This document shows, in pieces, positions 32,662 through 60,318 of a stretch of 64,000 nt of DNA. Origin of the DNA: Anaerolineae bacterium (GTDB lineage Bacteria > Chloroflexota > Anaerolineae > Promineifilales > Promineifilaceae). The position numbers and the translations under genes are program-made. The number at the start of each line of letters is the position of its first letter. Positions within the stretch are counted from its first letter, which is position 1. The stretch lies in contig JAHDWJ010000014.1 of the NCBI GenBank assembly GCA_023384415.1, positions 43,943-107,942 of the forward strand, in the 5' to 3' direction. The notes below the pieces were generated by a model, which saw nothing but the letters and a program-made list of their open reading frames with translations, did no database searches and had not been told where the DNA came from.

Positions 32662-33819
32662 ATGTATGAAATAGCGGCCTTGACTGAATTGTTGAAAGAA
32701 GAAGCCCGCCGGTTGGGGTTTAACCGGGTGGGGGTAATCGCGGCCGCGCCCGGTCAGCGGCTGGTGGCCTATCTGGATTGGTTGCAGCGGCAATATCATG
32801 GGGAGATGGGGTACCTGGCCCGCCCAGATAGAATAGCCCGCCGACAAGACCCGGCCCTGATTTTGCCCGGCATCCAGAGCATCGTCTGTGTAGGGCTAGA
32901 TTATTATACGGTGACGCCACCCCCGGAAATAACGGCTGATCCGGCCCGCGGCCGCATCTCCAATTATGCCTGGCAGGTAGATTACCATGAGGTGATGACC
33001 CCCCGTCTGGAGCAGTTGAGTCGCTGGCTGCAAATGATGAGCGGCCGCAACGCGGTGCAATCACGGGCCTATGTGGACACCGGGGCGATTCTAGAGCGGG
33101 ATCACGGGGAGCAGGCTGGGCTGGGATTTACCGGTAAAAACACAATGCTCATTGATCCCCGTCGGGGGTCCTGGTTTTTCCTGGGGGAGCTGCTGACCAC
33201 CATCTCCCTACAACCAGATGAGCCGAAACGGATGCCGGGCTGCGGCCGCTGCACCCGCTGCCTGACTGCCTGCCCCACCGATGCTTTCCCGGCCCCCTAC
33301 CAGCTAGATGCCCGCCGCTGTATCTCTTATCTGACCATTGAGCTAAAAGGGTGGATTCCCCGGGACCTGCGGCCGCTCATGGGGAACTGGATTTATGGCT
33401 GTGATGTGTGCCAGGACGTGTGCCCGTTTAACCGGTTTGCCCCGGAGACGGTTGAGCCTGTTTTTAAGCCGCTGGGGTGGGACGCGGCCGCGCCGCCGCT
33501 GCTAGAGCTGTTGACCTTGGATGAGGCCAGGTTCCAGACCCGGTTTGCCCACAGCCCGATCCAACGGATCAAGCGCGGCCGCTTCCTGCGTAATGTGTGT
33601 GTGGCGGTGGGCAATTGGGGGGATGCGGCCGCTGTTCCTCACCTGGCCTCTCTGCTTGCCGACTCTGACCCGCTGGTGCGGGGCCATGCCGCCTGGGCCT
33701 TGGGGCAAATAGGGGGTGAGGTGGCGCGTGATCTGTTACAGGGGAGTGCGGCCGCGGAGAGTGATCCCCATGTCCAACAGGAAATCCACCTGGCGATTCA
33801 CCCCGCGAATCACCAATAA
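32662..33819 (+). CDS. queG: tRNA epoxyqueuosine(34) reductase with C-terminal HEAT repeats
   Basis: CGRCTRCLTACPTDAF and CDVCQDVCPFNRF ferredoxin-type clusters; N-terminal GFNRVGV...YLDW. Confidence 0.9.
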   Translation: MYEIAALTELLKEEARRLGFNRVGVIAAAPGQRLVAYLDWLQRQYHGEMGYLARPDRIARRQDPALILPGIQSIVCVGLDYYTVTPPPEITADPARGRISNYAWQVDYHEVMTPRLEQLSRWLQMMSGRNAVQSRAYVDTGAILERDHGEQAGLGFTGKNTMLIDPRRGSWFFLGELLTTISLQPDEPKRMPGCGRCTRCLTACPTDAFPAPYQLDARRCISYLTIELKGWIPRDLRPLMGNWIYGCDVCQDVCPFNRFAPETVEPVFKPLGWDAAAPPLLELLTLDEARFQTRFAHSPIQRIKRGRFLRNVCVAVGNWGDAAAVPHLASLLADSDPLVRGHAAWALGQIGGEVARDLLQGSAAAESDPHVQQEIHLAIHPANHQ

Positions 33820-33844
33820 CGTAAGCAATTATGCGTGACATTCT

Positions 33845-33937
33845 CAGTAAAACGTGTAACCTTCGGAAGGTTTGGTCCAAGAGCTTGTCCATCACAGAAA
33901 CCTTCCGAAGGTTCGCCCCAACTTATTGAGAAGATAC
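33845..33937 (+). repeat. Family-1 hairpin element, copy B (93 bp)
   Basis: About 90% identical (84/93 by hand) to the reverse complement of 59101-59193. Contains AACCTTCGGAAGGTT (33858) and AACCTTCCGAAGGTT (33899), 41 nt apart. Confidence 0.85.
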
Positions 33938-33951
33938 GGTTATGCCAACTA

Positions 33952-33986
33952 AAAAGGGGCTGGATCACCTTGATCCAGCCCCTTTT
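33952..33986. terminator. Bidirectional intrinsic terminator between convergent queG and the adhesin gene
   Basis: AAAAGGGGCTGGATCA cct TGATCCAGCCCCTTTT. Confidence 0.8.
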
Positions 33987-34118
33987 CTATTGCGTCACTA
34001 TCTTTTCCATAACCGTTGGTTTATTGGTTGCACTTGTCGAAACCAACCGCCTTAGACAAGAGCGGAATCCGTTAGTTGGGAACTATTGCGAGAATAGCAG
34101 CCTATCAACCCAAGACGG

Positions 34119-37100
34119 CTAAGGGATGATAAAGAACCCGTTGATCAGTTCACCAGCCAGCCCACTAACATTGTTGGTATTGGTTCCACCAATGAAATAA
34201 CGTGGGTTGATAAACGTGCCCGTTGTTGTTGCTCCAAGTTGGTTCGGGATAAAGATGCCAATATCATTACCCAAACCTGTTAACGTGGTACTACTGTGGG
34301 AGACGGTAAAGTTGCCAAAGGTACTAAAGTAGACATGTCCCTGACTATTTAGCCAGAACGCCACAATGTTTTCAGCCGCATTGTTTGCATCGAAGCCAAT
34401 ATCAGAACCATCTATGAACCATGAATAATATCCTGTCGTTGGATTGAAAAGAACAATATCCTCATCATTCGCGTCAATATTTTGAGTGGCTGAAGATGGC
34501 ACTCGCATATTGCCTACCGTTGAGATGAGAATGGTTCCAGTTGACTGAACAAAGAACCCGTCAATGTATTCCAGGCGGCCATTGGAAGTATCTCCTAGCC
34601 CATATTGGGAACCATCAAAGAACATACTGAAACTGCCACTTGTGTTGGTTCCCAGGCTGGTGGGGGTAAAGCGGACAATATCTTCAGGATTGTAAGTATT
34701 GCCGCCATGATTAAACAGGTTGGCGAAGGTCATCAAAATTGTGCCATCGGGCAGCAGTTGGAAATCCTGAAGATTTTGCCCTACGCCAACATCTGAGCCA
34801 TCAAAGAATAAGCTGTATCCCCCGTTGACAAAGAGAACAATATCTTCGTCATTAACCCCACCTAAAGGGACGCCGTTCGGGCCAGTGATGGTGTTGTTGT
34901 CATCATTCAGCGTCAGCAGCAGGCCGCTCAGGGTGCTGAACTCCAGATAATCGTAGGTGGCCCCGGTGTTAATAACGTTGAGTTGAACGGTGTGCTGCCC
35001 GGCAGTTAAATACATGCCTGTCACCAGGATATTGCTGTAATTGCCGGCCCCCCCGTTGGGGACAGCGTAAGGGCCATAGGTACCGATGCCATTGAGCAGC
35101 AGGCTAAATTGAGCGTTATTGGTGTTCGCGGCCGCGCGCACCGTCACATTATAAAAGCCAGGGGTCGCCACATTGATCCTATAGCGCAGCCATTCCCCAT
35201 TGGCCGTTGCCCCCACAAAAACCCCATTGCTGGTGCCGCCGCTGAACAGATCAACCGACTCCCAGAACCGGTAAGAAGAGGTGCCCTGATTGCCGGGGGT
35301 CGTATCATTGTACCCGGTTGCCTGGCCACCACAGGTGAAATTCTCAGCTTCTACCCGGCCGGGCACATTGTACGGGCCAAATGAACATTCATCATCAATG
35401 ATGTTCAGAACCGCCGTCGTTTGTACCCCAAGCTGCCCATTCACCGGGTTAGAAAGGGCGAGATTAACCGTTTTGAACGGGGGGCCAGCAATGGTGTTGT
35501 TGATGATAGGGATGGAGAAAGTGCCACTGTTTTGGCCGGCGGGGATAGTGAGCGTACCGCTGGTGGCAGTATAGTCTGCCCCAGCAATGGCTGTGCCATT
35601 GCTAGTAGCATAGTTGACCGAAACCGGCTGGCTAACCACCGACCCCAGGTCTACGGTAATAATCGCCTGGCCGTCATTTTCGAATACCACATAGCTGCTA
35701 TTGTTAAATTGGATAGTGGTACCAGATGTCGTTTGCACCTGGATATAATCAAAGTACGCGCCGCCATTCACAATTTCCAGGCGCAAAATACGCGGCCCCT
35801 GGCTGAAAACAACCCAGGGGACGGTAATATTTTGGAAACTGAATGTATTGCCGGTATTGGGGACTTGAATTGGGTTGGCCGTCACGGAGACCCCATCTAC
35901 CAAAAGTCGGAACGATGCCCCATTCACATCAGAAGCGGCCCGGACAATGACATCGTAAGGAGAAGAGACGGCCACATTGACATCATAATGCAGCCATTCC
36001 CCGGCCACTGTCCAGCCTAGATCAATCCCCCCCGTCTGGGCGTTGGCCCGCAAATCTACGCCAGGGGCATCTACGACCCGGTAAGGGGAATTCCCTTGAT
36101 TTACCTCATCAATATCAAAATGGGTCACCCCTCTGGCCCCACACATGAAGTTTTCCACTTCAATGCGCGTGGGGATGGCGTGAGGGCCATAAGCGCAATC
36201 ATCGTCAATAATCGTGACCGTCACCGGGTTATTGCCTACAATCGGGATGTTAGGCGGCTGCGGATTGGAGAGACGAACGCTGAAAAATTCCTCCCATTCA
36301 TGGAGATTGTCATTGGTGATGGGAACGGTGATGATGCGATTTGTCACTCCCGGCGAGAAAGTGACTACCCCTTGACTGTGGGTGTAATCCCCTGGGGCAA
36401 AAGCGGTGCCTGGCTCAGTCTGGTACTCTACTGTTACCTGGGTGCTGTAGCTTCGGCTCAACTGAACGTAAAGGAGGGCAGTGCCCTGGTTCTCATTAAC
36501 GATGTAATTGGTGGCCGTGAAGGTAATGGTGGGGGCCGTTTCATCATCAATGATGGTCACGGGGACAGGGTTTGTCCCACTGATAGTTGATCCCGGGGGG
36601 GTGGGGTTGCTCAGGACGATAGAGAAATTAGCATCGCCTTCGGCCAGGCTGTTATTACAAATCTGGATGGTGATGGTTTGTTCATTAACGCCTGAGGGGA
36701 AGTTCAAGGTGCCGCTTTGAGTGACATACCGTATACCCCCGCTGCAGCTGCTTCCCCCAGTGGCGGTGCCATTTTGGGTGGTAAAGGCCACGGACGCGGC
36801 CGCGTTATACATCCGATCCATTCGCACGACAACTTGCAAAGGACCCTGGTTTTCTTCCACCAGATAAACCGATTCCGCAAACGAAAAGGCCGGGGGAACA
36901 TCATCATCCAAGATAGTCAGGGTGGCATCGGGTCCCACATTAGAGATATTGGCATTGCTCAACCGTAAGATGACCGTTTCATCTGGCTCAATTTCCGTGT
37001 CCTGCAAAATGGTGATGGTGAACTGCCCATTGGTTTGCCCTTGGGGAATGGTCACCGTTGTATTGACCGGCTCATAATCTGCCCCGGCAGTGGCCGTCCC

Positions 37101-37448
37101 ATCTACACTAGAAACAGTCACCACGACATCCTGGTAAAATTCATATGATAAGGACAGGAATAATGTGACCGTACCCTGGGCTTCACTAACAGTGGGGCTG
37201 GCGTTGGTGAAAGAGATGGTGGGAGCTGGTCGTGGCGTAAAATGACCCCCAATAGGGCCAATCTCGGGCGGGGCCAGGGGTGCCCGTTCCACAAATCGTC
37301 TGAAGGTATCTTCAATTGTAGGCCACAGAAGGGACAAAATTAAAACTACGGCCATACCCACCAAAAGTAGGATGACGGCATACTCAATGAAGCCCTGGCC
37401 GGCCTGCCGGGTAAAGCGTCGTTTGGGGGAATGGTTGTGTTTGAACAC
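34119..37448 (-). CDS. Giant Flp-type-leader protein with several Calx-beta-like and CBM-like domains (adhesin-like)
   Basis: N-terminus RQAGQGFIEYAVILLLVGMAVVLIL fits the Flp G-x4-EY prepilin motif plus a hydrophobic helix. Repeated GTATAGADY...TV.IP.GQ..G.F.I.I modules are Calx-beta-like. Two EVENF/EAENFxCGG modules are CBM-like. GTG start with AAGGAAGG upstream. Confidence 0.7.
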   Translation of the reverse strand: MFKHNHSPKRRFTRQAGQGFIEYAVILLLVGMAVVLILSLLWPTIEDTFRRFVERAPLAPPEIGPIGGHFTPRPAPTISFTNASPTVSEAQGTVTLFLSLSYEFYQDVVVTVSSVDGTATAGADYEPVNTTVTIPQGQTNGQFTITILQDTEIEPDETVILRLSNANISNVGPDATLTILDDDVPPAFSFAESVYLVEENQGPLQVVVRMDRMYNAAASVAFTTQNGTATGGSSCSGGIRYVTQSGTLNFPSGVNEQTITIQICNNSLAEGDANFSIVLSNPTPPGSTISGTNPVPVTIIDDETAPTITFTATNYIVNENQGTALLYVQLSRSYSTQVTVEYQTEPGTAFAPGDYTHSQGVVTFSPGVTNRIITVPITNDNLHEWEEFFSVRLSNPQPPNIPIVGNNPVTVTIIDDDCAYGPHAIPTRIEVENFMCGARGVTHFDIDEVNQGNSPYRVVDAPGVDLRANAQTGGIDLGWTVAGEWLHYDVNVAVSSPYDVIVRAASDVNGASFRLLVDGVSVTANPIQVPNTGNTFSFQNITVPWVVFSQGPRILRLEIVNGGAYFDYIQVQTTSGTTIQFNNSSYVVFENDGQAIITVDLGSVVSQPVSVNYATSNGTAIAGADYTATSGTLTIPAGQNSGTFSIPIINNTIAGPPFKTVNLALSNPVNGQLGVQTTAVLNIIDDECSFGPYNVPGRVEAENFTCGGQATGYNDTTPGNQGTSSYRFWESVDLFSGGTSNGVFVGATANGEWLRYRINVATPGFYNVTVRAAANTNNAQFSLLLNGIGTYGPYAVPNGGAGNYSNILVTGMYLTAGQHTVQLNVINTGATYDYLEFSTLSGLLLTLNDDNNTITGPNGVPLGGVNDEDIVLFVNGGYSLFFDGSDVGVGQNLQDFQLLPDGTILMTFANLFNHGGNTYNPEDIVRFTPTSLGTNTSGSFSMFFDGSQYGLGDTSNGRLEYIDGFFVQSTGTILISTVGNMRVPSSATQNIDANDEDIVLFNPTTGYYSWFIDGSDIGFDANNAAENIVAFWLNSQGHVYFSTFGNFTVSHSSTTLTGLGNDIGIFIPNQLGATTTGTFINPRYFIGGTNTNNVSGLAGELINGFFIIP

Positions 37449-37505
37449 GGAGACCTTCCTTATGAGATAAATAATGAATATGAATAGAATTCAGGATTTC
37501 CCATC

Positions 37506-37538
37506 AACCCTGACAAGTCTCAGAGACCTGTCAGGGTT
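37506..37538. other. 10-bp stem hairpin between the TadG-like and adhesin genes
   Basis: AACCCTGACA (13-nt loop) TGTCAGGGTT. Confidence 0.4.
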
Positions 37539-37568
37539 TGTTTCCGATGATCTCTAATGAAATCTGTA

Positions 37569-39542
37569 TTATTTGATGAGATAGGGCAGCCCCGGCAGGC
37601 GGATTTGCCAGCCGTAGGTGTCATGATTCCCGGCCCAATAGTGGGCGATGAGCCGACCGCCATAAAACGGGGTACACCATTGGGGGGTCGTAGCCTGATT
37701 GACGCAGCGTGCTGGGTCCAAAGTGGGCACTTGAATACGGTATGCTGGCTCAATCCACCGATTTTCACACCCTTGGGGGTTGGTTGAACTTCCCGAAGTG
37801 TATGGAACACAGTTCCGCACTTCTCCAGGAGCCAGGTCAGGGTCTGCGGTGCGGGTATGGTTGACGGCAAAAGCCAGGTGCCAGTCAGTCAGACTGGTAT
37901 TGGTTGGATTTTGTGGGGTTGGGGGCACCGGGTCTCGCAGGGTGAATGCCAGGGTATCAAAGTAAAAAACAACCGGTGAGCGCGAACCAGCATCAGGATC
38001 AAACATGCTGATCAAAATTTGCGACCCGCCATATTCCGCGCCAACGTAGATCAGAGGGATATCTACGGCAAAGTTGGCGTTGGAGTTCATGGGCAAATTG
38101 CCCATACCAAACACCGTTACCCCTTTGGAGCTGTGAGAAGTGTTGCCACAGCGAACGACGTGAAGATTGCGGGCATTGGCCTTGCTGGGAACGCCAGCAG
38201 GAGGAAATTGGCCTGGGGCACCACAAGGAGCCAGAGGGTCATGTGAGCCGCTGGCATAATAAGGAGGCCCGGCCCAAATTTCAAACCCATTTTCGGAAGC
38301 CCCAGCAATGGCGGTGACATCCAGGTAGAGGAAGCGGGTATTGTTCTGATCTCGCATGATGCCGGTGTGAGACCCTAGATCAATCTCAAATGTGCCTGAG
38401 CCAGAGGTAACAGGTACCGTGGCGGGGCAGCCTGGTACATTGCGGTGATCATAGGCATCTTGTGCCCCGGGGGAAACCCAGCGCATGTCGGTGCAGTGGG
38501 CATTGTCAGCTCGACCTACATATTTAGCGAGGGTTACCGGTTCAATGATGCCAGTGATCCCGTTGATCTGGTAATAATATAAATCAAATGAGGTTTGGGT
38601 TGGGTGCCCACTGGCATAGTTGTTACTGGTGGGGTTGCCACAACTGCTGCCAAAATTTTGCCGTATTTCATCAATGCGAATGAACCAAAATGGGTTGGCG
38701 TCTTGACTTTCCCCGGTCTGAAAAATACAGGGTTGGAATCGGTAGCGGTCATCTCCCGGGCAGGCGGCCGCGCCGGTGGTACCGTCGGAGCGGGTGAAGG
38801 GGTGGGTAGCGCCATTTTCATCATTGGTATTGCCCAGGGACCAATTATAAGTATCAGGGTCAAACAGCTCTACCCGGATAATGCTGGTACCGGCAGTGGC
38901 TTCATAATTTGGCGGGATCATGATCCGGTAGCGGTAGGTGAAGAAGCTGTTGCTGTAATCCGGGTTGACATAATGGTTCGGCGGGCGGAAGGTACTGGTG
39001 GTGGGGGAGAATGGGTCCCCTAGACCGGTACGGCAGTTAGGCCCAAAGATTGCCTGATTAGATGTGCCCAGAGTACCCAGTTCAACGCGGCGGCTGGCAT
39101 AAATATCTACTAGAGGGAAATAAGCCGCTGTAGCTGATCGTTGAATGTTAAATTCGTTAAAGGTGAGCAGGCGCATGAAATAAAGCTCAACTGGCCAGGT
39201 TGCGGTTACGGTGAATTGGGTAGCCCCAATGGCATTGGCGCCAGGCATATATTGGGTGCCAGACATGACGACGCTGGCGGGAATGTTGTTGCTGTAGAGA
39301 AACTGTTCGGCTTTGGTAATGGCCCCGCTGAGGCCGAGTTGGGTTTCTATTTCGGTGACGCCAGCTAATGCGGCCGCGTCTACTGCGGCTGTCAACTGGG
39401 CACTCCGTACCCATACCATGCCTAAATCTATGGCCAGTCCGACAAAAGCCAGCAAGGCAACCATGACCACCGCAATGAGGACAATGCTTTGCCCAGCTTC
39501 CTTATGATTATTTGTTGGAGATGTCCTGTGTTGTCTCATCAT
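37569..39542 (-). CDS. TadG-like (Flp pilus assembly, PF13400-type N-terminus) large secreted protein
   Basis: GQSIVLIAVVMVALLAFVGLAIDLGMVWVRSAQLTAAVDAAALAG matches the TadG N-terminal pattern as I recall it. The remaining ~600 aa have no motif I recognise. Confidence 0.65.
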   Translation of the reverse strand: MMRQHRTSPTNNHKEAGQSIVLIAVVMVALLAFVGLAIDLGMVWVRSAQLTAAVDAAALAGVTEIETQLGLSGAITKAEQFLYSNNIPASVVMSGTQYMPGANAIGATQFTVTATWPVELYFMRLLTFNEFNIQRSATAAYFPLVDIYASRRVELGTLGTSNQAIFGPNCRTGLGDPFSPTTSTFRPPNHYVNPDYSNSFFTYRYRIMIPPNYEATAGTSIIRVELFDPDTYNWSLGNTNDENGATHPFTRSDGTTGAAACPGDDRYRFQPCIFQTGESQDANPFWFIRIDEIRQNFGSSCGNPTSNNYASGHPTQTSFDLYYYQINGITGIIEPVTLAKYVGRADNAHCTDMRWVSPGAQDAYDHRNVPGCPATVPVTSGSGTFEIDLGSHTGIMRDQNNTRFLYLDVTAIAGASENGFEIWAGPPYYASGSHDPLAPCGAPGQFPPAGVPSKANARNLHVVRCGNTSHSSKGVTVFGMGNLPMNSNANFAVDIPLIYVGAEYGGSQILISMFDPDAGSRSPVVFYFDTLAFTLRDPVPPTPQNPTNTSLTDWHLAFAVNHTRTADPDLAPGEVRNCVPYTSGSSTNPQGCENRWIEPAYRIQVPTLDPARCVNQATTPQWCTPFYGGRLIAHYWAGNHDTYGWQIRLPGLPYLIK

Positions 39543-39588
39543 GTTCTGTCCTACGTGATAAAGATTGAGGCAATCTTATCGTTTGTGC

Positions 39589-39628
39589 TGCGTGACGAGT
39601 GCTATATTCACGCAGCACTCGTCACGCA
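39589..39628. other. 15-bp perfect stem hairpin in the TadG-like gene leader
   Basis: TGCGTGACGAGTGCT (39589-39603), 10-nt loop, AGCACTCGTCACGCA (39614-39628). No T-tract on either strand. Confidence 0.6.
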
Positions 39629-39771
39629 ATCTATTATGGCTCCTTAGGAATTCAAAGGATTGATGCCAGATGTAAGGGACTGGCCTTCTACCTGCCCAGT
39701 CGAGGGCAACCACAAGGATATGCCCCTACATTTAGCCTTGTCCCACGAAACCCCAAAGACCCTGTATTAAT

Positions 39772-41106
39772 TTAGGGTGTAGACGTTGTTTGCCCACAAC
39801 TGGTGTCATAGCTCACAAATTGCACCAACAGCCAGCGGTTGGTTTCTCCAGACACAAATTGGTAGCCTAACAGCCGCACATTGGCAAATTGGGCTACGCG
39901 TACAAAAGGTTGATCAGAATTGCCAGGACCACCCCCTTGTAGTACGCCATGTTCCCGCCACATAATGACCCGCAAGGTGCGCCTCCGGTCAATATGTCCG
40001 GCGGCTTCGTCAGAAACGGCTGAACCATTGGCGTTACTATAAGCTACCCGGTCGCCAATGCTTAATTCGGTATCGGGCCAATTACCTACTTCATGGAAGC
40101 CCAGGTCAACAGGGGTACGCACCGTGCTGTTGCCGGGCCAGGTCATGCTGGCTCGCAAACGGGTGTGCCCCTGATTGCAGCCAGTACAGGTGGAATCCGT
40201 ATTCCATTGCAGCCAGGCATAATTAACGGCCGGTGAAACGTTTAGCCCTTCACCCAGGAACAAGAAAACATCCCCCTCGGTAGCCCCAGCCTGGAGCGGA
40301 TTGTTGGCGACATGCCCTTGCTGGACAAGCTGGGCATAAGTGGGCAAAACGGCAGGGTACCGTTGATTGACCGGGTGCCAGCCGGTGGCGATGGCGTAGG
40401 TTGCCGGGTCAACGGATCGGATCACATCATCTCGTAAGGCCAGGGGGAAGGCATCACACCCCGCCGTTTGGTTGTTGGAGACGACGGAAGTTACGCGAAA
40501 TACATGCAAGGCCCGCACGGTGAATACTCTTTCCAGGAACACATCTAACCCCAGAATAGATTCAATGTCATGGGCTGAATACATGGCGACAAATTCCAGG
40601 TTGTTAATATCTGGAGCCGGGTTGCTGGGGTTTTGGCAGGTGCCGGTGCCCCCCTGGACTAATTTGTTCATAACATCCTGGCGGAATTGTGGTGAAAAAA
40701 CATAGCTGTTGGTTTCGGTAAAAGCGACGGTTTGGGAAATGCCGTAGCTGTGTTCAACGGTGAAATTTTGGTCGTTGGGACCAAAATCTAGGGTAGGGCT
40801 GCCATTGGTCCCATTGAGGCAGCGTGCCCGGACGCGGCCGCGGACAGACCATAAATCCCATTGGTCAATCTCTAACTTGAGCGTTTGCGTCACCGTATTA
40901 AGAGCTACCGAGACCATACCGGCATTTTCTCCCCCATTGGCTCCAAAGCGGGCAGCCTCGCGGGTAGCCGTATTGACCTTATTCTGCGTTACCAGATACA
41001 GGCTTAATTCCACCAGCCCGGCAATGATGATCAGGGCTACCGGCAGAAAGATAGCGACTTCAACTAAACTTTGACCTTTTTGCTGCCACCTTGTTTTTGT
41101 TTGCAT
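39772..41106 (-). CDS. TadE-like pseudopilin-leader protein (444 aa)
   Basis: KGQSLVEVAIFLPVALIIIAGLVELSLYLVTQNKVNTATREAARFGANGG is a TadE-family N-terminus. Confidence 0.65.
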   Translation of the reverse strand: MQTKTRWQQKGQSLVEVAIFLPVALIIIAGLVELSLYLVTQNKVNTATREAARFGANGGENAGMVSVALNTVTQTLKLEIDQWDLWSVRGRVRARCLNGTNGSPTLDFGPNDQNFTVEHSYGISQTVAFTETNSYVFSPQFRQDVMNKLVQGGTGTCQNPSNPAPDINNLEFVAMYSAHDIESILGLDVFLERVFTVRALHVFRVTSVVSNNQTAGCDAFPLALRDDVIRSVDPATYAIATGWHPVNQRYPAVLPTYAQLVQQGHVANNPLQAGATEGDVFLFLGEGLNVSPAVNYAWLQWNTDSTCTGCNQGHTRLRASMTWPGNSTVRTPVDLGFHEVGNWPDTELSIGDRVAYSNANGSAVSDEAAGHIDRRRTLRVIMWREHGVLQGGGPGNSDQPFVRVAQFANVRLLGYQFVSGETNRWLLVQFVSYDTSCGQTTSTP

Positions 41107-41227
41107 GATTACGCTCCTACGAAAATCAGAACCGATGACGGATAATCCAGGACGGATGAATCACTTTCCACTGCCTGTTGTCTGTCATTTTCATCCCTCA
41201 AATTTGTCACTCTGCCTCAACTTTCCT

Positions 41228-41875
41228 TTAAGATGAAGTCAAAGGCATGATCTCACCACTGTTGGCATCCAGTCGAATGGTCAGTGATTGGCCTGTCTGG
41301 CTGCTAAACAGCGAAATAGTCCACTCCATGCGGCCGCTTTCGGTTACCGCACTTAAATTCATATTCAAGATCGAAACCCCTTGCGTCCGTAAAAATTGAT
41401 CCCCGCCCGCCTGCTCCAACAAAATTTGCACTGCTTCCGGGCTGTCAATCCGCCAGCCCGTGCTAGAAGCAGGCGTAAGTGGGTTAGGTGCCGGATTTTG
41501 GCTAATCAGTTGGGCAACATTTTCTAATACTTCGATGTTAGCGACACTGCTTTGTCCTGGGGAGTAAAAGATAAAGCTCCAAACAGTAGTCCCAGTTAAA
41601 ATATCGCTGCGAGTGACCCCTTGCGGCCAGGTTGCTTTGGCTTCTATTAATTGGGCATCACTTTGCCATTCACGGGCCACATTGGTGGCGGAAGTAAAGG
41701 CTAAAACGGCGGTGCCCCCCTGGAAAGCCAGGGTGGGGGCTACCGGCACCGTAACCGCCAGGGTAGGCGGGAGCTCCACGGTTGGTTTAGGCAGCCAGAG
41801 GATCGCGGCCGCGATCAGCACAATCGCCAGCAGCAATACCAAAATCGTTCCTAAAATCCATTCGGCTCGGCTCAT
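41228..41875 (-). CDS. N-terminally anchored hypothetical protein
   Basis: A single TM segment (ILGTILVLLLAIVLIAAAILWL). ATGA overlap with the upstream gene stop. Confidence 0.55.
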   Translation of the reverse strand: MSRAEWILGTILVLLLAIVLIAAAILWLPKPTVELPPTLAVTVPVAPTLAFQGGTAVLAFTSATNVAREWQSDAQLIEAKATWPQGVTRSDILTGTTVWSFIFYSPGQSSVANIEVLENVAQLISQNPAPNPLTPASSTGWRIDSPEAVQILLEQAGGDQFLRTQGVSILNMNLSAVTESGRMEWTISLFSSQTGQSLTIRLDANSGEIMPLTSS

Positions 41876-43260
41876 GATCGTCTTATAAACGGCAGGAATA
41901 CCCCTGGTTGGGGCAGTTCCCGCCGGCGATAATAAATCTGGATATCCCCATTAGCAGGATTTCGCAGCTCAAAAACCAATTGAAACCACTGCCCATCTGT
42001 GGTCAGGCGTGGATAAAGGGTACGGGTGTTAAAATCAGTTGCCCGGTCTAAATTCGATCCCCAACCACCGCAACTGTTGCTGCCCCATACCACTTCTAAA
42101 GAATGGTTAGGATCACCATCCAGCCCATGATAATAAACCGCCACACAAGTGCCATAACTAATCATGGACGGGATGATAAAAAATGGGTCTTGTGTATTAA
42201 CCCCTACCGGCGCACTGCCACTGATGGGATTACTGGGGTGAGATACCCAACTGGCGGCATTGGTGCAATTACTGCTGCAAGAGGTCACATACACCTCTTG
42301 CCAGACAGGTTCACCCGGCTGTGCCCCCCCATAGCGATAGCTGTAAGCCACAAACAAGGTATTCCCCTGAGCCACAATGTCAGGGCGGGCGGCTTCATCT
42401 ATAGATGGATCCGCAATGTTAATCGGATTGGCCGCGTTGTACTCCCAACTGGAAGTTGTATTCGTGCCTGTCACCGTGCCCCTGGCATAACGAATCCGGC
42501 TGAACTCATTATTGGGGGGTTCAATAATCGCTTCTTCCCAAACAACATGGAGTTTGCCGTCTGTGGTTATAGCCAGAGATGGGTTAAACGAATTGGGACC
42601 AGTAATGGCGACCGGGTTGGGATTGGTGCTCCAACTGCCGCCGCCGTTGGCGGATCGTTTGTGCAAGATATTAAGTTGGAATTGGGTGTCAGGAAAAACC
42701 TGGCTCCATACCACATCTAGCCGGTTGTTACTGCTGGCGACAATGCGCGGGGACACCATCGCGGCCGAAACAGCAGATGTTGCCTGGCTTAACGTCTGCG
42801 GGGCACTCCAACTACCAGATACATTATTGGCATAATACAGCCTGGTCAACTGCCCCAGGCCGGCATTTTCTAACCAGACAATGTGCACCCGATTGTTGGC
42901 ATCCACCGCCACATCAACCGCCGTACCATTGACCGTACTTCCCGGTACCACTCGGGTTGGTCCGTTCCAACTCACCCCGTCATTGGTTGAAATCCGCACA
43001 TACGGGGTGTAGAAAGAGCCAGTATGCTGCAAATAAACCACAGCCAGGGTTGAACCGTCGGCTGAATAAGCAATTGCAGGAGCAATGGCGCGGCCAGTAG
43101 TTGTGGAAAGATGGACCCCTGGGGGTGTTCCTTCCCAATCCCCTAGAGCTTCTGGGGCTGAGGCGGCTGGAGCAACCTGGATCAGGCTGACCATGCCCAG
43201 CAGTACCAGCAGCAGCACCGGGAGCAATATTGTTTGGCGGGAGATAGTTCGCTTTACCAT
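41872..43260 (-). CDS. Secreted BNR/sialidase-like beta-propeller protein
   Basis: Signal/anchor MVKRTISRQTILLPVLLLVLLGM. BNR-like motifs STNDGVSWNGP and SANGGGSWST. ATG 43260 chosen. Confidence 0.65.
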   Translation of the reverse strand: MVKRTISRQTILLPVLLLVLLGMVSLIQVAPAASAPEALGDWEGTPPGVHLSTTTGRAIAPAIAYSADGSTLAVVYLQHTGSFYTPYVRISTNDGVSWNGPTRVVPGSTVNGTAVDVAVDANNRVHIVWLENAGLGQLTRLYYANNVSGSWSAPQTLSQATSAVSAAMVSPRIVASSNNRLDVVWSQVFPDTQFQLNILHKRSANGGGSWSTNPNPVAITGPNSFNPSLAITTDGKLHVVWEEAIIEPPNNEFSRIRYARGTVTGTNTTSSWEYNAANPINIADPSIDEAARPDIVAQGNTLFVAYSYRYGGAQPGEPVWQEVYVTSCSSNCTNAASWVSHPSNPISGSAPVGVNTQDPFFIIPSMISYGTCVAVYYHGLDGDPNHSLEVVWGSNSCGGWGSNLDRATDFNTRTLYPRLTTDGQWFQLVFELRNPANGDIQIYYRRRELPQPGVFLPFIRRS

Positions 43261-43298
43261 TTTACCAATCCTAAAAATCCGTGTTCCCCAAGCTGTCT

Positions 43299-45440
43299 TT
43301 ATCGGAACGTATGCCCAGATGTTGGGGCCGGGCAACCACTCACACTTTCCATCATAAACATGTCTATATAGAAGTTGGGCGCGGTAATGCCGGGGCGAAC
43401 GGCGGCATAATAGACATTCCCATTGGCTGTATTCAGGGTAAAACAGGCATAAACAGTGTAAGTAACCCCTAACTCAGCATAATTAAAGAAGTAACTCCCG
43501 GTGACACTGCTGTCCGTTTGGGCCACCAGCGTTGGGGTGGGGACACCAGACGTTTGCACCAGGTAAACGGTAGCCCGGAATTGGGGCACCCAGTCGCTCC
43601 CGGTGAAGATACGCACAATCCCGGCGATGGTATTACTCCCTGATGGGGTGGGAGTGGGAGTAGGTGTTTCAAACGGGGGTGTCACGGGAACGACGAGATT
43701 ACCGGTAATGTTGTTAAACTCGTTGGCTTCAGTAACCTGCCGTATGGAATCAACCATACCCACCACGGTGTGAGTGGTGGCTATGCCAGGGAACCCACCC
43801 CCTATGGTCATGGTAATCGTTCGGCTGTCACCACCGGGAAGACCCCCAACGGCCACATAAGCAACACTATAGGTGATGGGCACTGTGTCCGACGTTACGC
43901 CCAAAGGATTGAAGTAGGTGTCCACATAAAACTGGCTGGAGATGTTAATGTTGCCGGTGTTGGTAATGACATAGCTAAAGGTCACCGGTTGGCCGCCATT
44001 AATTGGCGGGGTACTGATCAGGGTCGGGTAGCTCACAATGACCAGATCTGCCGGGTTGGGTGATGGTGTCGGTGTAGGTGAAATAATCGTTGGTTGGGCA
44101 CAAGGGACATCGAACCGTCTTTCGGCATACGCTCCATTGATAGCCTGAGCCGCAAAAGTATAGGGTGAATTGGCTTGAGTAAAGGCAGCCACGCTGACCA
44201 TAACTTCGGCAAAGCTGCCCCCATGTCCCTGGGCTATGGTGGTTATATTGATACTGTTACCAAACCGATCATAAACAGAGATGTTGATAGGGGATTGCGG
44301 CGGAGGGGTGATGGGCCAATTGCCCCCAAACAGCTCAATGACAGCATTGGGTGAGCCAGGGTTCCAACAGGTTGACGAAGCGTTGATATAGGGACCAATA
44401 GGTGTGGCGCTGGGGGTTGGGGTCAGGCTAGGGGTGGGGGTAGCCGTTGGTATAGCTGTATTGGTTGGCAAGGGGGTTGGGGTGGGGGTGCCAGGCAAAA
44501 CAAAGGTGTAACTATTGGTATTGTCTACCAGGTTTGTTACTAGCAGCAGCATGCCTGCTACTAAGTTGACGCCAGGCTCCAGGACAAATTCCCCATGCCC
44601 AGGGCAGGCCCAACCCGGCCCTTCATCTTCCAGGAAGGCTAAATCAAGTTCGACGTTGTTGACCCCATCTATCCAGTCTAAGCGAACGGTGATAGGCGGA
44701 GCCGCGCCTAAACCACCAGTCACGCCAATGAACCGATCCCCTGCTACTACTGGTCCCGTGAACTGAGTTCTACAAGTTGGGGTAGCTGTTATGGACGGGA
44801 TGGGGGTATTGGTTTCGGTGGGCCCGGGTGATGGGGTAGCTGTTTCTGTAGGTGTTGGGGTGAAGCTGGGAGTTGGTCCGGGTGTGGGCACGGCTGGCAC
44901 GGGCGGGGGAAGACCCTGCCCCTGGTTAGCACTTCCTTGCTGCCCAAACTGTTCGTTGTTGACGACGACTTGCCCCATAACGGGAATGTTTTCTACGATG
45001 CCAGATAGGATAGGGGTGACGATGGGCACGTTGTAGACGACGCGAACCACCAGGGGAAGTCCAGGCATGCCGGCATAATCTTCCTGGAAAAACCCCAGAG
45101 CATTGACGCCATAAACTTGAACGATATAGAAGTAATCATCTTCATAAGCAGCGTCGGCATTGAGAGGCAGCCCGGTTAGATTTTCTTCAGCCAGGGATTT
45201 GATGGAAAAGACACGAGGATCGGCACATGGGGGGGTGTTGTTAAGACAGGCCAGATTGGCTTCACCGGTGATGCCGTAACGAGCTGCGGCACGGGCGGCG
45301 TTTTGCACTGTAACCCAGGCCCATAAAATCCGGCTGGCTTCGATAATGAAGAAAATGATGAGCAGTAAGACGATGATGATGAGGGCAAACTCAACGATGG
45401 CCTGACCCTTGTTGTCCATTTTATGCTTGGTTCGGAACAT
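43299..45440 (-). CDS. TadE-like pseudopilin-leader protein with T/P-rich linkers and Ig-like (CARDB-like) C-terminal modules
   Basis: KGQAIVEFALIIIVLLLIIFFIIEASRILWAWVTVQNAARAAARYG fits the G-x4-EF TadE motif. The start could be 45440 or 45419. Confidence 0.65.
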   Translation of the reverse strand: MFRTKHKMDNKGQAIVEFALIIIVLLLIIFFIIEASRILWAWVTVQNAARAAARYGITGEANLACLNNTPPCADPRVFSIKSLAEENLTGLPLNADAAYEDDYFYIVQVYGVNALGFFQEDYAGMPGLPLVVRVVYNVPIVTPILSGIVENIPVMGQVVVNNEQFGQQGSANQGQGLPPPVPAVPTPGPTPSFTPTPTETATPSPGPTETNTPIPSITATPTCRTQFTGPVVAGDRFIGVTGGLGAAPPITVRLDWIDGVNNVELDLAFLEDEGPGWACPGHGEFVLEPGVNLVAGMLLLVTNLVDNTNSYTFVLPGTPTPTPLPTNTAIPTATPTPSLTPTPSATPIGPYINASSTCWNPGSPNAVIELFGGNWPITPPPQSPINISVYDRFGNSINITTIAQGHGGSFAEVMVSVAAFTQANSPYTFAAQAINGAYAERRFDVPCAQPTIISPTPTPSPNPADLVIVSYPTLISTPPINGGQPVTFSYVITNTGNINISSQFYVDTYFNPLGVTSDTVPITYSVAYVAVGGLPGGDSRTITMTIGGGFPGIATTHTVVGMVDSIRQVTEANEFNNITGNLVVPVTPPFETPTPTPTPSGSNTIAGIVRIFTGSDWVPQFRATVYLVQTSGVPTPTLVAQTDSSVTGSYFFNYAELGVTYTVYACFTLNTANGNVYYAAVRPGITAPNFYIDMFMMESVSGCPAPTSGHTFR

Positions 45441-45724
45441 GGTTGCTTCCCTGTTGGGAACAATTGGTATATTACCCAACTGCTCAATGAAAATGATAAA
45501 AAATTAATGGTTGTATGCCTCTGGTATTTTGGTCATGGTAACTGGTGTACCTGGTGGGCATTTGTTGGTTGTTTAAGTTAAGATTGTCGCGGCCGCAGCC
45601 CATTCGCCTGATCATACCTTTTTTTGGACAATCTGCGCTGTTGAGGGCATGCTGCTACTATCTCTACCCTTACCTTAGCAGATAGGTGCTAACTAACCGT
45701 TAATTGATCATTAATCACCAAACG

Positions 45725-45795
45725 GGTTAGGTAGGTAGATGGTACTAGTTAGGATGGGAGATTGAGAGATGGGGGATTGCTAACTGCTAACTGCC
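45725..45795. repeat. Heptamer repeat block (D + E' units) in the E1 gene leader
   Basis: GGTTAGG TAGGTAG ATGGTAC TAGTTAG GATGGGA GATTGAG AGATGGG GGATTGC TAACTGC TAACTGC, followed by AGGAGG and TTG 45811. Confidence 0.75.
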
Positions 45796-45810
45796 GACAG
45801 GAGGTTTTTC

Positions 45811-56799: not shown

Positions 56800-57004
56800 G
56801 CGCTTTTGCCTTAAAGAGGTTTTGGCTCCTTATGAATTCAAGAGGTAAATACGGTGCCTCAATTTAGAAAGGCCCCGGCTCATTCGTAGTGAACCTTTTT
56901 GTTTACATCCATGGGCATATTAACCATACACCCATACTGTTTCAGTTTACGGGCAAATGGGGGGGAAGCAACGAGTTTTCGCGTAAATTTAACGACCCGT
57001 TTGC

Positions 57005-57056
57005 GGGGATTTAACTGGGGATTGGGGGGATTCAGAGATTCAGAGATTGGAGACTG
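57005..57056. repeat. Heptamer/octamer repeat block (D-type)
   Basis: GGGGATTTAACTGGGGATTGGGGGGATTCAGAGATTCAGAGATTGGAGACTG. Confidence 0.75.
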
Positions 57057-57161
57057 CAAGAACTACCCGACGCGGTGACAAAGCGAGGGGGCGATAGGGG
57101 GAAATAAAAGCGCAAATTGCGCTCTTTGGCAATATAAGGGGAGTGGGAGAGTGATATGGGT

Positions 57162-57194
57162 CAACTGCTTACTGCCCACTGCGGCTAACTGCCA
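57162..57194. repeat. Heptamer repeat block (E-type) overlapping the stop codon of the FHA-gpI gene
   Basis: CAACTGC TTACTGC CCACTGC GGCTAACTGCC. The reverse complement shares GGCAGTTAGCCG with 18039-18050. Confidence 0.75.
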
Positions 57195-58195: not shown

Positions 58196-58210
58196 GGGTA
58201 TCTCCTGGAA

Positions 58211-58245
58211 GGATGAATTAAGAATGATGAATTATGAAGGATAAG
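58211..58245. repeat. Heptamer repeat block (GATGAAT type)
   Basis: GGATGAAT TAAGAAT GATGAAT TATGAAG GATAAG. Shares GATGAATTATGA with 60212-60223. Confidence 0.7.
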
Positions 58246-58301
58246 CCAGGGTGAATCTTATGTACAGACTTGCCCACTCGCAAATTCGCCAACATTGTAA
58301 C

Positions 58302-60303: not shown

Positions 60304-60318
60304 ACAAGGAGTCATCTT

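What the first reader, a model, noticed from the sequence alone, without database searches (positions are those of the whole stretch)
34119..45440. Six-gene operon of outsized Flp/TadE/TadG-leader proteins without any Tad secretion machinery nearby
Four of six co-oriented, tightly spaced genes begin with class-III (Flp-type) prepilin-like leaders. These are GQGFIEYAV (34119-37448), GQSIVLIAV (TadG-like, 37569-39542), GQSLVEVAI (39772-41106) and GQAIVEFAL (43299-45440). Canonical Flp pilins are about 50-80 aa and TadE/F pseudopilins about 150-200 aa. Here the proteins are 1109, 657, 444 and about 713 aa, and they carry Calx-beta-like, CBM-like and Ig-like modules. A BNR propeller gene and a small anchored protein are interleaved with them. 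No tadA/cpaF ATPase, tadB/C, prepilin peptidase or secretin gene is present in the window. As inference, this could be a specialised pilus-tip or minor-pilin adhesin set that depends on a Tad system encoded elsewhere. Alternatively, the Flp-like leader may be reused as a general export or anchoring signal.
Basis: partly seen in the sequence, partly recalled or inferred. Interest (0 to 1): 0.6.

Follow-up and report, generated by a model that had tools for sequence, protein, structure and literature searches.

The report
Detached Tad-pilus tip operon, giant Flp
This six-gene operon of a filamentous Chloroflexota bacterium most likely builds the sticky, sugar-binding tip of a Tad adhesion pilus whose motor genes lie elsewhere in the genome. 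Its oddest part is a normally tiny Flp pilin fused to a 1,050-residue adhesin arm, a new variant of a known design.

Summary
Four of six co-oriented minus-strand genes (45440 to 34119) begin with Flp/TadE/TadG-type prepilin leaders. Pfam confirms TadE twice and Tad/TadG once, and the 1109-aa protein carries a complete Flp module.

The window holds no Tad machinery, but the genome does, and it is scattered. There is one tadZ-tadA-tadB-tadC set, one A24 prepilin peptidase, two RcpC-like genes and three small Flp genes, all on other contigs. This operon holds the genome's only TadE/TadG genes, so it is the pilus's minor-pilin set, not a spare.

The cassette is conserved across about 19 sampled genera of one Anaerolineae-type family. 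In 14 genomes a large Flp-leader gene with swappable cargo (CBM6/35, vWA, F5/8-C, InlB repeats) sits directly downstream of the TadG-like gene. Natural Sec-secreted single-chain fusions join the TadG body, the TadE body and a Calx-beta/CBM unit end to end. This suggests the three heads form one assembly.

The best reading is a detached "Tip" cluster like Myxococcus KilLMN plus KilO, with the Flp adapter turned into a giant glycan-binding arm. It is a new variant of a known kind.

A genome-wide C-terminal ...LPxxx[R/K] tail is shared by the TadG-like protein, the propeller and about 40 secreted proteins. It remains unexplained.

The parts
43299..45440 (-). g1: modular TadE-type minor pilin (713 aa). 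It has the leader ..NKG|QAIVEF, a pilin module of about 190 aa, Pro/Thr-rich linkers, and Ig-like/CARDB modules.
   Evidence: PF07811 53.7 bits and CARDB 27.4 bits. An ortholog occupies the same position in G002 and in the Leptofilum-like genome.
41872..43260 (-). g2: Sec-signal protein (462 aa from MVKRT..; an alternative TTG start lies at 43335). It is a sialidase/BNR-like beta-propeller candidate and ends in the tail ..VFLPFIRRS.
   Evidence: Only sub-threshold BNR_2 and PDIAV_lipo matches. The signal peptide ..QVAPAASA|PE is read directly from the sequence. It is 34% identical (E 2e-66) to the gene at the same cassette position in L029.
41228..41875 (-). g3: 215-aa bitopic membrane protein (N-terminal TM helix, no prepilin motif). 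Its start overlaps the g2 stop by 4 nt.
   Evidence: Sequence. No Pfam or NCBIfam match. It is 43% identical (E 3e-51) to the gene at the same cassette position in L029.
39772..41106 (-). g4: large TadE-type minor pilin (444 aa). It has the leader ..QKG|QSLVEV, a pilin module (aa 1 to about 210) and a second body domain (aa about 216-442).
   Evidence: PF07811 42.6 bits. The AF2 model has pLDDT 88, with a helix at 10-56 followed by a beta-sheet and a second domain. There are 128 homologs of about 400-450 aa in Anaerolineae-type bacteria. The body aligns to fusion protein P0132 residues 541-741.
37569..39542 (-). g5: TadG/CpaL-type minor pilin-like protein (657 aa). The leader is ..EAG|QSIVLI, with no Glu at +5. 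The pilin-like module spans aa 1 to about 150 and the beta-rich Cys-rich body spans aa about 150-653. It ends in the conserved tail GLPYLIK.
   Evidence: PF13400 33 bits. The AF2 model has pLDDT 86.9 and pTM 0.84, with a helix at 16-62 and a beta-rich body. There are more than 400 homologs, which sources name 'TadG-related'. G17/Q18 are invariant and the C-terminal GLPYL(V/I)(R/K) is conserved. The body aligns to P0132 residues 47-534 at 50% identity.
34119..37448 (-). g6: giant modular Flp-type pilin (1109 aa).
   Evidence: ORF and domains. Full-length orthologs of 47-60% identity occur only in the same genus and in metagenomes.
37281..37448 (-). g6 carrier: 17-aa leader, G|QGFIEY and a complete Flp helix (aa 1 to about 56). 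It is followed by the conserved APLAPP linker.
   Evidence: 38-44% identical to the genome's 55-, 57- and 163-aa Flp proteins over their whole length. The same carrier heads large ORFs in at least 13 genera. About 65 of the best 150 cluster representatives world-wide are 200 aa or longer.
34935..37226 (-). g6 cargo: four Calx-beta domains and two CBM6/CBM35 modules (aa about 75-838).
   Evidence: Pfam Calx-beta E 8.5e-75 (4 stretches), CBM_35_2 E 3.7e-19 and CBM_6 E 1.8e-14. A Calx-beta+CBM unit aligns to the end of fusion P0132.
34122..34877 (-). g6 distal module (aa about 858-1109). It consists of four degenerate repeats (..EDIVxF..FDGSDxG..I.GF..) and ends in GFFIIP.
   Evidence: No Pfam or PDB sequence match. 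The repeats were read by eye. The same module ends many other large proteins in the family and the modular Flp of G020.

Best explanation
The operon is the detached minor-pilin ('Tip') cassette of this organism's single Tad (type IVc) pilus.

Shown:
- g1 and g4 are TadE-type, g5 is TadG/CpaL-type and g6 is Flp-type.
- All four carry class-III prepilin leaders.
- They are the only TadE/TadG genes in the genome.
- The motor and platform (tadZABC), the only A24 prepilin peptidase, RcpC-like genes and the small Flp pilins lie on other contigs.
- The six-gene cassette is conserved, with g2 and g3 in fixed positions.

Inferred mechanism:
1. The peptidase cuts after the Gly of G|Qxx(V/I)E.
2. g5 lacks Glu+5, as apex subunits such as GspK do. 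It caps a helix bundle with g1 and g4, and this bundle primes polymerisation of a small Flp by TadA/B/C.
3. g6 inserts through its complete Flp helix next to this complex, as the Flp adapter pilins KilK/KilO do in Myxococcus.
4. g6 thereby holds a flexible arm of about 1,050 residues at the pilus tip. The arm consists of Calx-beta spacers, two CBM6/35 lectin modules and a distal repeat module. It would bind polysaccharide on flocs, sheaths or other cells.

Natural single-chain proteins join the g5 body, the g4 body and a Calx-beta/CBM unit end to end. This suggests the three extracellular heads form one physical unit.

The secreted propeller g2 and the membrane protein g3 are conserved accessory parts of unknown role. 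A PilY1-like tip partner and an assembly factor are possibilities.
For: - Family membership: Pfam TadE in two proteins and Tad in one, all above cut-off.
- Folds: the AF2 models of g5 and g4 show a long N-terminal helix followed by a beta-sheet, as in pilins, plus extra bodies.
- Flp module: the g6 N-terminus aligns with the genome's small Flp pilins over their whole length.
- Genome inventory:
  - One T2SSE ATPase above cut-off, flanked by a receiver-ParA TadZ and two T2SSF genes on C14.
  - One A24 peptidase on C67.
  - RcpC-like genes on C127.
  - Small Flp genes on C26, C134 and C111.
  - TadE and Tad hits only in this operon.
- Conservation:
  - The same six genes lie between the same flanking genes in the same genus.
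  - The same six-gene order occurs in a Leptofilum-like genome whose sixth gene is a 480-aa Flp-leader CBM6/35 protein.
  - The TadG-like gene is present in 21 of 41 relatives.
  - A large Flp-leader ORF lies immediately downstream on the same strand in 14 of them.
- Cargo swapping on a conserved carrier of about 75 aa: F5/8-C+vWA, InlB repeats+F5/8-C, DUF1349, P-domain+F5/8-C+vWA and a GH115_C-like module.
- Rosetta stone: P0132 47-534 matches g5 147-653 (50% identity, E 1e-166). P0132 541-741 matches g4 216-442 (E 3e-32). P0132 740-1006 matches a g6 Calx-beta+CBM unit (E 1e-42). P0058, P0131, P0133 and P0160 have the same layout.
- Precedent:
  - Myxococcus Kil Tad pili use TadE/F/G-like heterotrimeric Tips encoded in clusters away from the core, with Flp adapter pilins. 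One of these, KilO, lies inside a tip cluster (PMC12075869).
  - CpaL/TadG is a tip subunit of about 600 aa (PMC13533445).
  - Chloroflexales carry tadEEG apart from tadZABC (PMC7332563).
Against: - No experiment, expression data or multimer model supports assembly.
- The g6 Flp module fails the Pfam Flp_Fap cut-off.
- No solved structure resembles the g5 or g4 bodies, so their function is unknown.
- The same head domains also occur as Sec-secreted single chains without any pilin module. The heads can therefore work without a pilus, and this weakens the inference that the pilin versions must sit on a filament.
- A 1,050-residue cargo on an Flp helix has no characterised precedent. Whether it can pass the machine and the cell envelope is untested.
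Confidence: 0.75

Rival explanations
1. Pilus-independent surface display, a 'bindosome-like' arrangement. The prepilin leaders serve only to insert and trim membrane-anchored subunits. These form a short stub or stay in the membrane and present the glycan-binding heads at the cell surface, as class-III-signal sugar-binding proteins do in Sulfolobus (own knowledge). No long filament carries them.
For: The heads also exist as Sec-secreted single chains, so they are functional without a filament. The g6 arm is long enough in principle to reach outward from the membrane. No data show the proteins on pili.
Against: These are the only TadE/TadG genes in a genome that keeps a full Tad core and small Flp pilins. 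In studied Tad systems such minor pilins are needed to start the filament (PMC12075869). The g6 carrier is a complete Flp, conserved right up to the linker. That degree of conservation is not needed for a mere anchor.
Confidence: 0.13
2. g6 is a body subunit, not a tip subunit. Modular Flp copolymerises with small Flp along the shaft and gives a bottle-brush, cellulosome-like glycan-binding fibre.
For: The carrier is a full Flp followed by a flexible Pro-rich linker. Raynaud et al. note that a body location of modular pilins cannot be excluded if the linker is flexible (PMC8179133).
Against: The gene is fixed directly downstream of the TadG-type gene in 14 genomes. Its cargo is fused to the TadG and TadE bodies in the single-chain relatives. 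Both point to a tip-complex partner. Steric crowding along the shaft is likely.
Confidence: 0.06
3. The Tad-like machine with this cassette acts as a type-II-secretion-like pseudopilus or docking platform. It would serve the roughly 40 secreted proteins that share the C-terminal ...LPxxx[R/K] tail, rather than act as an adhesion pilus.
For: The tail ends g5, g2, the single-chain fusions and about 40 Sec-signal proteins, including S8 and metalloprotease-type enzymes. This is about 8-fold above chance. CpaL's extreme C-terminus acts by beta-strand addition in tip complexes (PMC13533445).
Against: Nothing links the tail to the Tad genes beyond its shared presence on g5 and g2. A general envelope-sorting tag explains it more simply. 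Small Flp pilins and lectin cargo fit adhesion.
Confidence: 0.06

Closest known systems
Myxococcus xanthus Kil (Tad-like) pilus 'Tip' clusters: KilL/KilM/KilN plus the Flp adapter pilins KilK/KilO (Herrou et al. 2025, PMC12075869)
   Same: TadE-, TadF- and TadG-like minor pilins are encoded together, away from the motor genes. The large TadG-type subunit carries a variable distal domain. A Flp-type minor pilin gene can lie inside the tip cluster (KilO in tip3). Variable heads adapt the pilus to different targets.
   Different: - There is one cassette per genome here, not four.
- The Flp-type member is not a 59-aa helix but carries 300 to more than 1,000 residues of swappable lectin/adhesin cargo.
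- Both TadE-types are themselves enlarged.
- Two extra conserved non-pilin genes are present (a Sec propeller and a bitopic protein).
- The organism is a Chloroflexota bacterium, where no secretin was looked for and none is expected. There is no T3SS link and no predation context.
Caulobacter crescentus CpaJ/CpaK/CpaL tip complex (PMC12607857; PMC13533445)
   Same: There are two TadE-like pilins plus a TadG-like protein of about 600 aa at the apex. A conserved extreme C-terminus of the TadG-type protein is present here (GLPYL[V/I][R/K]), as expected if C-terminal beta-strand addition applies.
   Different: The genes are not in the pilus locus. The g5 body has no recognisable vWA or other known domain and no PDB neighbour. 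Caulobacter has no modular Flp.
Modular type IV pilins PilB and PilC of Streptococcus sanguinis (PMC8179133; PMC9934059)
   Same: A pilin module is joined by a short linker to a grafted adhesion module (vWA or lectin). The protein is thought to be displayed at the tip. The architectures are very diverse.
   Different: Those are T4a-type pilins with a globular pilin domain and the IPR012902 motif, and the published census used that motif only. Here the carrier is an Flp, the minimal all-helix T4c pilin, and the cargo reaches about 1,050 residues.
Split Tad genes of filamentous Chloroflexales (rcpC-tadZABC, tadEEG, flp; Gaisin et al. 2020, PMC7332563)
   Same: In the same phylum, the Tad genes are scattered, with a tadE-tadE-tadG group apart from the motor. 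The Tad pilus is the only type IV system present.
   Different: That paper only lists the genes. It does not describe enlarged TadE proteins, a modular Flp, propeller or anchor genes, or fusions.
Class-III-signal sugar-binding proteins ('bindosome') of Sulfolobus (own knowledge, not checked here)
   Same: Prepilin-type leaders sit on carbohydrate-binding surface proteins.
   Different: That system is archaeal and has its own assembly ATPase and membrane protein. Its substrates are transporter binding proteins, not TadE/TadG/Flp homologs.

Membership tests
TadE-like minor pilin (PF07811) | N-terminal TadE domain above the Pfam gathering score | tested here: met
   g1 scores 53.7 bits and g4 scores 42.6 bits against a cut-off of 22.9.
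TadE-like minor pilin (PF07811) | Prepilin cleavage motif G|xxxxE followed by a hydrophobic helix | tested here: met
   The motifs are G|QAIVEF in g1 and G|QSLVEV in g4. G11, Q12 and E16 are nearly invariant in 70 homologs. The AF2 helix spans residues 10-56.
TadE-like minor pilin (PF07811) | Usual size of about 150-200 aa (own knowledge of TadE/TadF) | tested here: not met
   The proteins are 713 and 444 aa. The extra length is added modules (CARDB/Ig-like; a second body domain).
TadG/CpaL-type minor pilin-like protein (PF13400) | N-terminal Tad domain above the gathering score, and a protein of about 550-650 aa | tested here: met
   g5 scores 33 bits against a cut-off of 22.3 and is 657 aa. 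CpaL is about 600 residues. Sources name homologs 'TadG-related'.
TadG/CpaL-type minor pilin-like protein (PF13400) | Pilin-like fold: a long N-terminal helix packed on a beta-sheet | tested here: met
   The AF2 model has pLDDT 86.9 and pTM 0.84. A helix at 16-62 is followed by strands at 96-141.
TadG/CpaL-type minor pilin-like protein (PF13400) | The extreme C-terminal beta-strand completes the tip complex (PMC13533445) | not testable with these tools
   The conserved tail GLPYL(V/I)(R/K) is present. No multimer prediction or model coordinates were available.
Flp/Fap pilin (PF04964) | Leader ending in Gly, G|xxxxEY motif and a hydrophobic helix that makes up the whole mature pilin | tested here: met
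   The motif is ..RQAG|QGFIEYAVILLLVGMAVVLILSLL. The N-terminus is 38-44% identical to the genome's 55-, 57- and 163-aa Flp proteins across their full length. G, E and Y are kept in all orthologs and carrier homologs seen.
Flp/Fap pilin (PF04964) | Pfam Flp_Fap match above the gathering score | tested here: not met
   The score is 12.3 bits against a cut-off of 32.2. The genome's own small Flp proteins also fall short, at 17.5-29.3 bits.
Flp/Fap pilin (PF04964) | Size of about 50-80 aa with no globular domain | tested here: not met
   The protein is 1109 aa, with about 1,050 aa of Calx-beta, CBM6/35 and repeat modules after the Flp helix.
Flp/Fap pilin (PF04964) | Cleaved by the prepilin peptidase and polymerised by TadA/B/C | not testable with these tools
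   The enzymes exist in the genome, but no biochemical data are available.
Tad 'Tip' gene cluster (Kil-type, PMC12075869) | TadE-, TadF- and TadG-like genes clustered apart from the motor genes | tested here: met
   The operon lies on C60 and tadZABC on C14.
Tad 'Tip' gene cluster (Kil-type, PMC12075869) | The three minor pilins form one heteromeric complex | tested here: inconclusive
   No multimer prediction was possible. The evidence is indirect: natural end-to-end fusions of the g5 body, the g4 body and g6-type cargo. g1 is not part of the fusions.
Tad 'Tip' gene cluster (Kil-type, PMC12075869) | Sequence homology to KilL/M/N Tip1-4 | not tested
   The paper reports that Tip1-4 are restricted to Myxococcota. 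No Kil sequences were compared here.
Modular type IV pilin (sensu Raynaud et al. 2021) | An N-terminal pilin module joined by a linker to a module not specific to pilus biology | tested here: met
   g6 has an Flp module, an APLAPP linker and Calx-beta/CBM modules. g1 has a TadE module, PT linkers and CARDB.
Modular type IV pilin (sensu Raynaud et al. 2021) | IPR012902-type (T4a/T2SS) class III signal | tested here: not met
   The leaders are of the Flp/TadE (T4c) type, with G|Qxx(V/I)E(Y/F/V), and the Pfam matches are TadE/Tad. InterPro itself was not run.

The most novel reading that the evidence does not exclude
The short C-terminal tail ...(Y/F)LP-x3-(R/K) may be a trans-acting docking strand. 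It ends the TadG-type protein (GLPYLIK), the cassette's propeller (VFLPFIRRS), the single-chain fusions and about 40 Sec-secreted proteins of this genome, proteases among them. By the same beta-strand-addition principle shown for PilY1/PilK and CpaL, it would load secreted enzymes and lectins onto pilin-like acceptors. The Tad tip, or a Tad pseudopilus, would then be a general display or secretion platform for a monoderm-like Chloroflexota cell.
Probability: 0.07. Interest if true: 0.85.

Novelty: new variant of a known kind. Interest (0 to 1): 0.5.

Why it matters
Flp pilins are the textbook minimal pilin, a single helix of about 50 residues with no head. This work finds a conserved family in which that helix carries up to about 1,000 residues of swappable lectin, vWA or Ig-type cargo. 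At least 13 genera carry it, and about 65 of the best 150 cluster representatives world-wide are large proteins. The gene is fixed next to the TadG-type gene. This extends the 'modular pilin' idea to type IVc pili. It also extends the 'interchangeable Tip' idea from predatory Myxococcota to filamentous Anaerolineae, which are abundant in activated sludge and sediments. Attachment of these bacteria to flocs and polysaccharides matters in practice.

The natural single-chain fusions give a ready-made, soluble form of the tip head for structural and glycan-binding work. The finding is also a useful annotation lesson. A pilin operon with no machinery nearby can be the sole minor-pilin set of a scattered system.

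Tried and rejected
- PDB by sequence for g5, g4 and the g6 distal module: no match at E<=1 apart from one chance hit.
- Pfam at E<=1 on the g6 distal 260 aa: nothing. BLAST self-comparison did not detect its repeats. They were read by eye.
- Promoter and terminator scans of 33800-46000: counts no higher than in shuffled sequence. They gave no evidence on transcript structure.
- Loci from other genomes were not available in the Python box. Synteny was therefore read from ORF lists and the gene tables of the look-up of encoding contigs.
Whether the g5 C-terminal strand pairs with its own pilin sheet could not be checked.
- Literature searches for Flp pilins fused to cargo and for a Chloroflexota C-terminal sorting signal found nothing relevant.
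- Rejected reading: a mobile island. G+C is unremarkable, and the cassette sits between the same housekeeping genes (E1 dehydrogenase, QueG) in the same-genus genome G002 and two public assemblies.
It is a genome-wide tail.

Full report
**What is there.** On the minus strand of the window, six ORFs run from 45440 down to 34119.
- g1, 43299-45440, 713 aa.
- g2, 41872-43260, 462 aa from MVKRT. It has a Sec-type signal ending ..APAASA|PE.
- g3, 41228-41875, 215 aa, with an N-terminal TM helix.
- g4, 39772-41106, 444 aa.
- g5, 37569-39542, 657 aa.
- g6, 34119-37448, 1109 aa.

The gaps between successive genes are 38, -4, 121, 229 and 120 nt. The flanking genes are an E1 dehydrogenase (divergent) and QueG (convergent). 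Pfam puts g1 and g4 in TadE (53.7 and 42.6 bits, cut-off 22.9) and g5 in Tad/TadG (33 bits, cut-off 22.3). It finds CARDB in g1, and four Calx-beta stretches plus two CBM6/CBM35 modules in g6. g2 has only sub-threshold BNR-like matches, and g3 has no match.

The leaders read ..KG|QAIVEF (g1)..KG|QSLVEV (g4)..AG|QSIVLI (g5, no Glu at +5) and ..AG|QGFIEY (g6). A TadG/CpaL-type protein of about 600 residues is normal. The enlarged proteins are the two TadE-types and the Flp-type.

**Is g6 really an Flp?** Its first 56 residues do not reach Pfam Flp_Fap (12.3 bits). The genome's own small Flp proteins also fall short (17.5-29.3 bits). A motif scan of all six frames of the 6.13-Mb genome found seven credible prepilin-type ORFs. 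Four are the operon proteins. The other three are Flp genes of 55 aa (C26), 57 aa (C134) and 163 aa (C111). g6 is 38-44% identical to these three over their entire length, including the helix-breaking Pro and the F.R motif near their ends. The g6 N-terminus is therefore a complete Flp. It is followed by a conserved APLAPP linker and about 1,050 residues of cargo.

**Where is the machinery?** It is not in the window but elsewhere in the genome, and it is scattered.
- One T2SSE ATPase above cut-off lies on C14. A receiver-ParA TadZ precedes it, two T2SSF genes follow, and a LuxR-type two-component pair lies upstream.
- One A24 peptidase with the bacterial N-terminal domain lies on C67.
- Two RcpC-like genes lie on C127.

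TadE and Tad family searches of the whole genome hit only this operon. The operon is thus the sole minor-pilin set of the organism's only type IV system. A split of tadZABC, tadEEG and flp has already been noted for Chloroflexales (PMC7332563).

**Conservation.**
- The same six genes sit between the same flanking genes in the same-genus genome G002 and two public assemblies. G001 keeps the same gene order with QueG on one side.
- A more distant Leptofilum-like genome (g5 43% identical) has the same order: TadE+CARDB 700 aa, a g2 homolog, a g3 homolog, TadE 438 aa, Tad 648 aa and then a 480-aa protein. That last protein starts ..ELG|QGFVEYALILILVGIAVV...APVAPP and carries CBM6/35. Its g2 and g3 homologs are 34% and 43% identical.
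- The TadG-related family has more than 400 members and the large TadE family has 128. Sources label them Anaerolineae, Promineifilaceae, Ardenticatenaceae or Ca. Leptofilum.
- Among 41 related genomes, g5 homologs occur in 21. These cover 19 sampled genera, and all but one genome belong to the same family.
- The g6 carrier gives its best hits in large ORFs (285-1123 aa) in at least 13 genera. Small Flp genes occur much more widely.
- Comparing coordinates, the large Flp-leader ORF lies directly downstream of the TadG-type gene on the same strand in 14 genomes. G006 has two of them in tandem.
- The cargo differs from genus to genus. It includes F5/8-C plus vWA, six InlB-type repeats plus F5/8-C, InlB repeats plus DUF1349, P-domain plus F5/8-C plus vWA, and a GH115_C-like module plus the same distal repeat module as g6.
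- A search of 1.84 billion cluster representatives with the 68-aa carrier gave 161 hits. About 65 of the best 150 are proteins of 200 aa or more with the match at their N-terminus.

**Rosetta-stone fusions.** Several metagenomic and genomic proteins (P0058, P0131, P0132, P0133, P0160) start with an ordinary Sec signal. They then contain, end to end, the g5 body, the g4 body and Calx-beta/CBM units. The alignments for P0132 are:
- residues 47-534 to g5 147-653 (50% identity, E 1e-166);
- residues 541-741 to g4 216-442 (E 3e-32);
- residues 740-1006 to a g6 Calx-beta+CBM unit (E 1e-42).

The junctions coincide with the natural C-termini of g5 and g4. Such body-only paralogs coexist with the pilin versions in several relatives, though not in this genome. 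The inference is that the extracellular heads of g5, g4 and g6 form one functional unit. That unit can be built either as one secreted chain or as three pilin-borne pieces.

**Structure.** AF2 with family alignments gave confident models. g5 has pLDDT 86.9 and pTM 0.84, with a helix at 16-62 and then a beta-rich body. g4 has pLDDT 88, with a helix at 10-56, a sheet and a second domain. The N-terminal parts look pilin-like. The bodies have no significant neighbour in the PDB by sequence or fold.

**Mechanism.** The closest worked-out system is the Myxococcus Kil Tad pilus. There, TadE/F/G-like KilL/M/N trimers encoded in separate 'tip' clusters cap the filament. They are needed to start it and expose a variable distal domain. 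Small Flp adapter pilins (KilK, and KilO inside tip3) couple them to the shaft (PMC12075869). CpaL/TadG acts as the apex subunit in Caulobacter.

By analogy, g1, g4 and g5 would be the priming/tip complex, with g5 (no Glu+5) at the apex. g6 would be the cluster's Flp-type member, turned into a carrier for a long Ca-stiffened arm ending in lectin modules. g2 and g3 are conserved accessories.

Membership, genome inventory, conservation, cargo swapping and the fusions are shown. Cleavage, assembly, tip location and glycan binding are inferred. I put 0.75 on the general reading. The rivals are a pilus-independent surface stub (0.13), a shaft ('bottle-brush') location of g6 (0.06) and a secretion/docking platform (0.06).

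**Side observation.** g2 ends in ..VFLPFIRRS. A genome scan found 31 ORFs of 150 aa or more ending in (V/I/L/M/F)(F/Y/W)LP-x2-4-(R/K). With a relaxed core the count is 44, against about 5 expected by chance. The relaxed set includes g5 (GLPYLIK, conserved in the family). The carriers have Sec signals. They include proteins with S8-protease motifs (HGTHV.GT, GTSMA.PHV.G) and metalloprotease motifs (HEYGHG, HELGHG). The single-chain fusions and the Leptofilum-like g2 homolog end in the same way. The tail is too short for a membrane anchor. It is a general C-terminal tag of secreted proteins here, not a cassette-specific signal. Its meaning is open.

**Novelty.**
- Already published are the Tip-cluster concept, the split Tad genes of Chloroflexota and modular T4a pilins.
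- Not found in the searchable literature are Flp pilins used as carriers for large swappable cargo, the fixed six-gene cassette with propeller and anchor, and the single-chain head fusions.
- Earlier notes of this scan describe the same kind of cassette in other genomes. I treated them as leads and reached the reading independently from this genome.

Verdict: a new variant of a known kind, of moderate interest.

Noticed in passing
window 41872-41900 (g2 C-terminus) and 37569-37595 (g5 C-terminus); genome-wide in G000: A C-terminal tail ...(Y/F)LP-x3-(R/K)(P) ends 31-44 ORFs of the genome, about 8-fold above chance. Carriers include g2, g5 and Sec-signal proteins with protease-type motifs, as well as Kelch, BNR-like and LVIVD-repeat proteins. 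It looks like an undescribed sorting or docking tag and is too short for a TM anchor.
   Followed up: partly
window 34122-34877 (g6 aa about 858-1109): A module of about 250 aa, made of four degenerate repeats (..EDIVxF..FDGSDxG..), has no Pfam or PDB match. It recurs at the C-terminus of many unrelated large proteins across the family, of two other ORFs of this genome (C5:5337-5873, C133:2-571) and of the modular Flp of G020.
   Followed up: partly
G000 contigs C20, C34, C54, C67, C111: A family of at least 9 paralogs of about 379 aa ends in ..QLPERFYLP(I/V/L)(L/V)GRP. Two copies are cut by contig ends, which suggests a multi-copy gene that breaks the assembly.
   Followed up: no
P0009 (745 aa; NCBI contig of 1.17 Mb): One public ortholog of g6 diverges into unrelated sequence after about residue 690 and stops at 745. 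This looks like a frameshift, either an assembly error or real truncation of the arm.
   Followed up: no
G000:C111:15161-15652 (L010): A third Flp gene encodes 163 aa: a canonical Flp (Flp_Fap 29.3 bits) plus a tail of about 100 aa of unknown nature. It is intermediate between the small Flp proteins and the giant one.
   Followed up: no
G000:C14:89471-96200 (L013 5471-12200): The Tad core is preceded by a LuxR-type response regulator and a histidine kinase. TadZ itself carries a receiver domain, so pilus assembly is probably under two-component control. A ComF-like gene follows tadC.
   Followed up: no
window 39589-39628 and 37491-37513: Hairpins lie in the 229-nt g4-g5 gap and the 120-nt g5-g6 gap. 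The second is listed as terminator-like, but such sites are no more frequent than in shuffled sequence. They may set the ratios of the subunits.
   Followed up: no
window 54397-61515: This stretch holds an FHA::P2-gpI-like baseplate domain protein, an eCIS-core-like protein, a kinase-FHA protein and an SH3-muramidase. It was already flagged by another note and has no evident link to the pilin operon.
   Followed up: no
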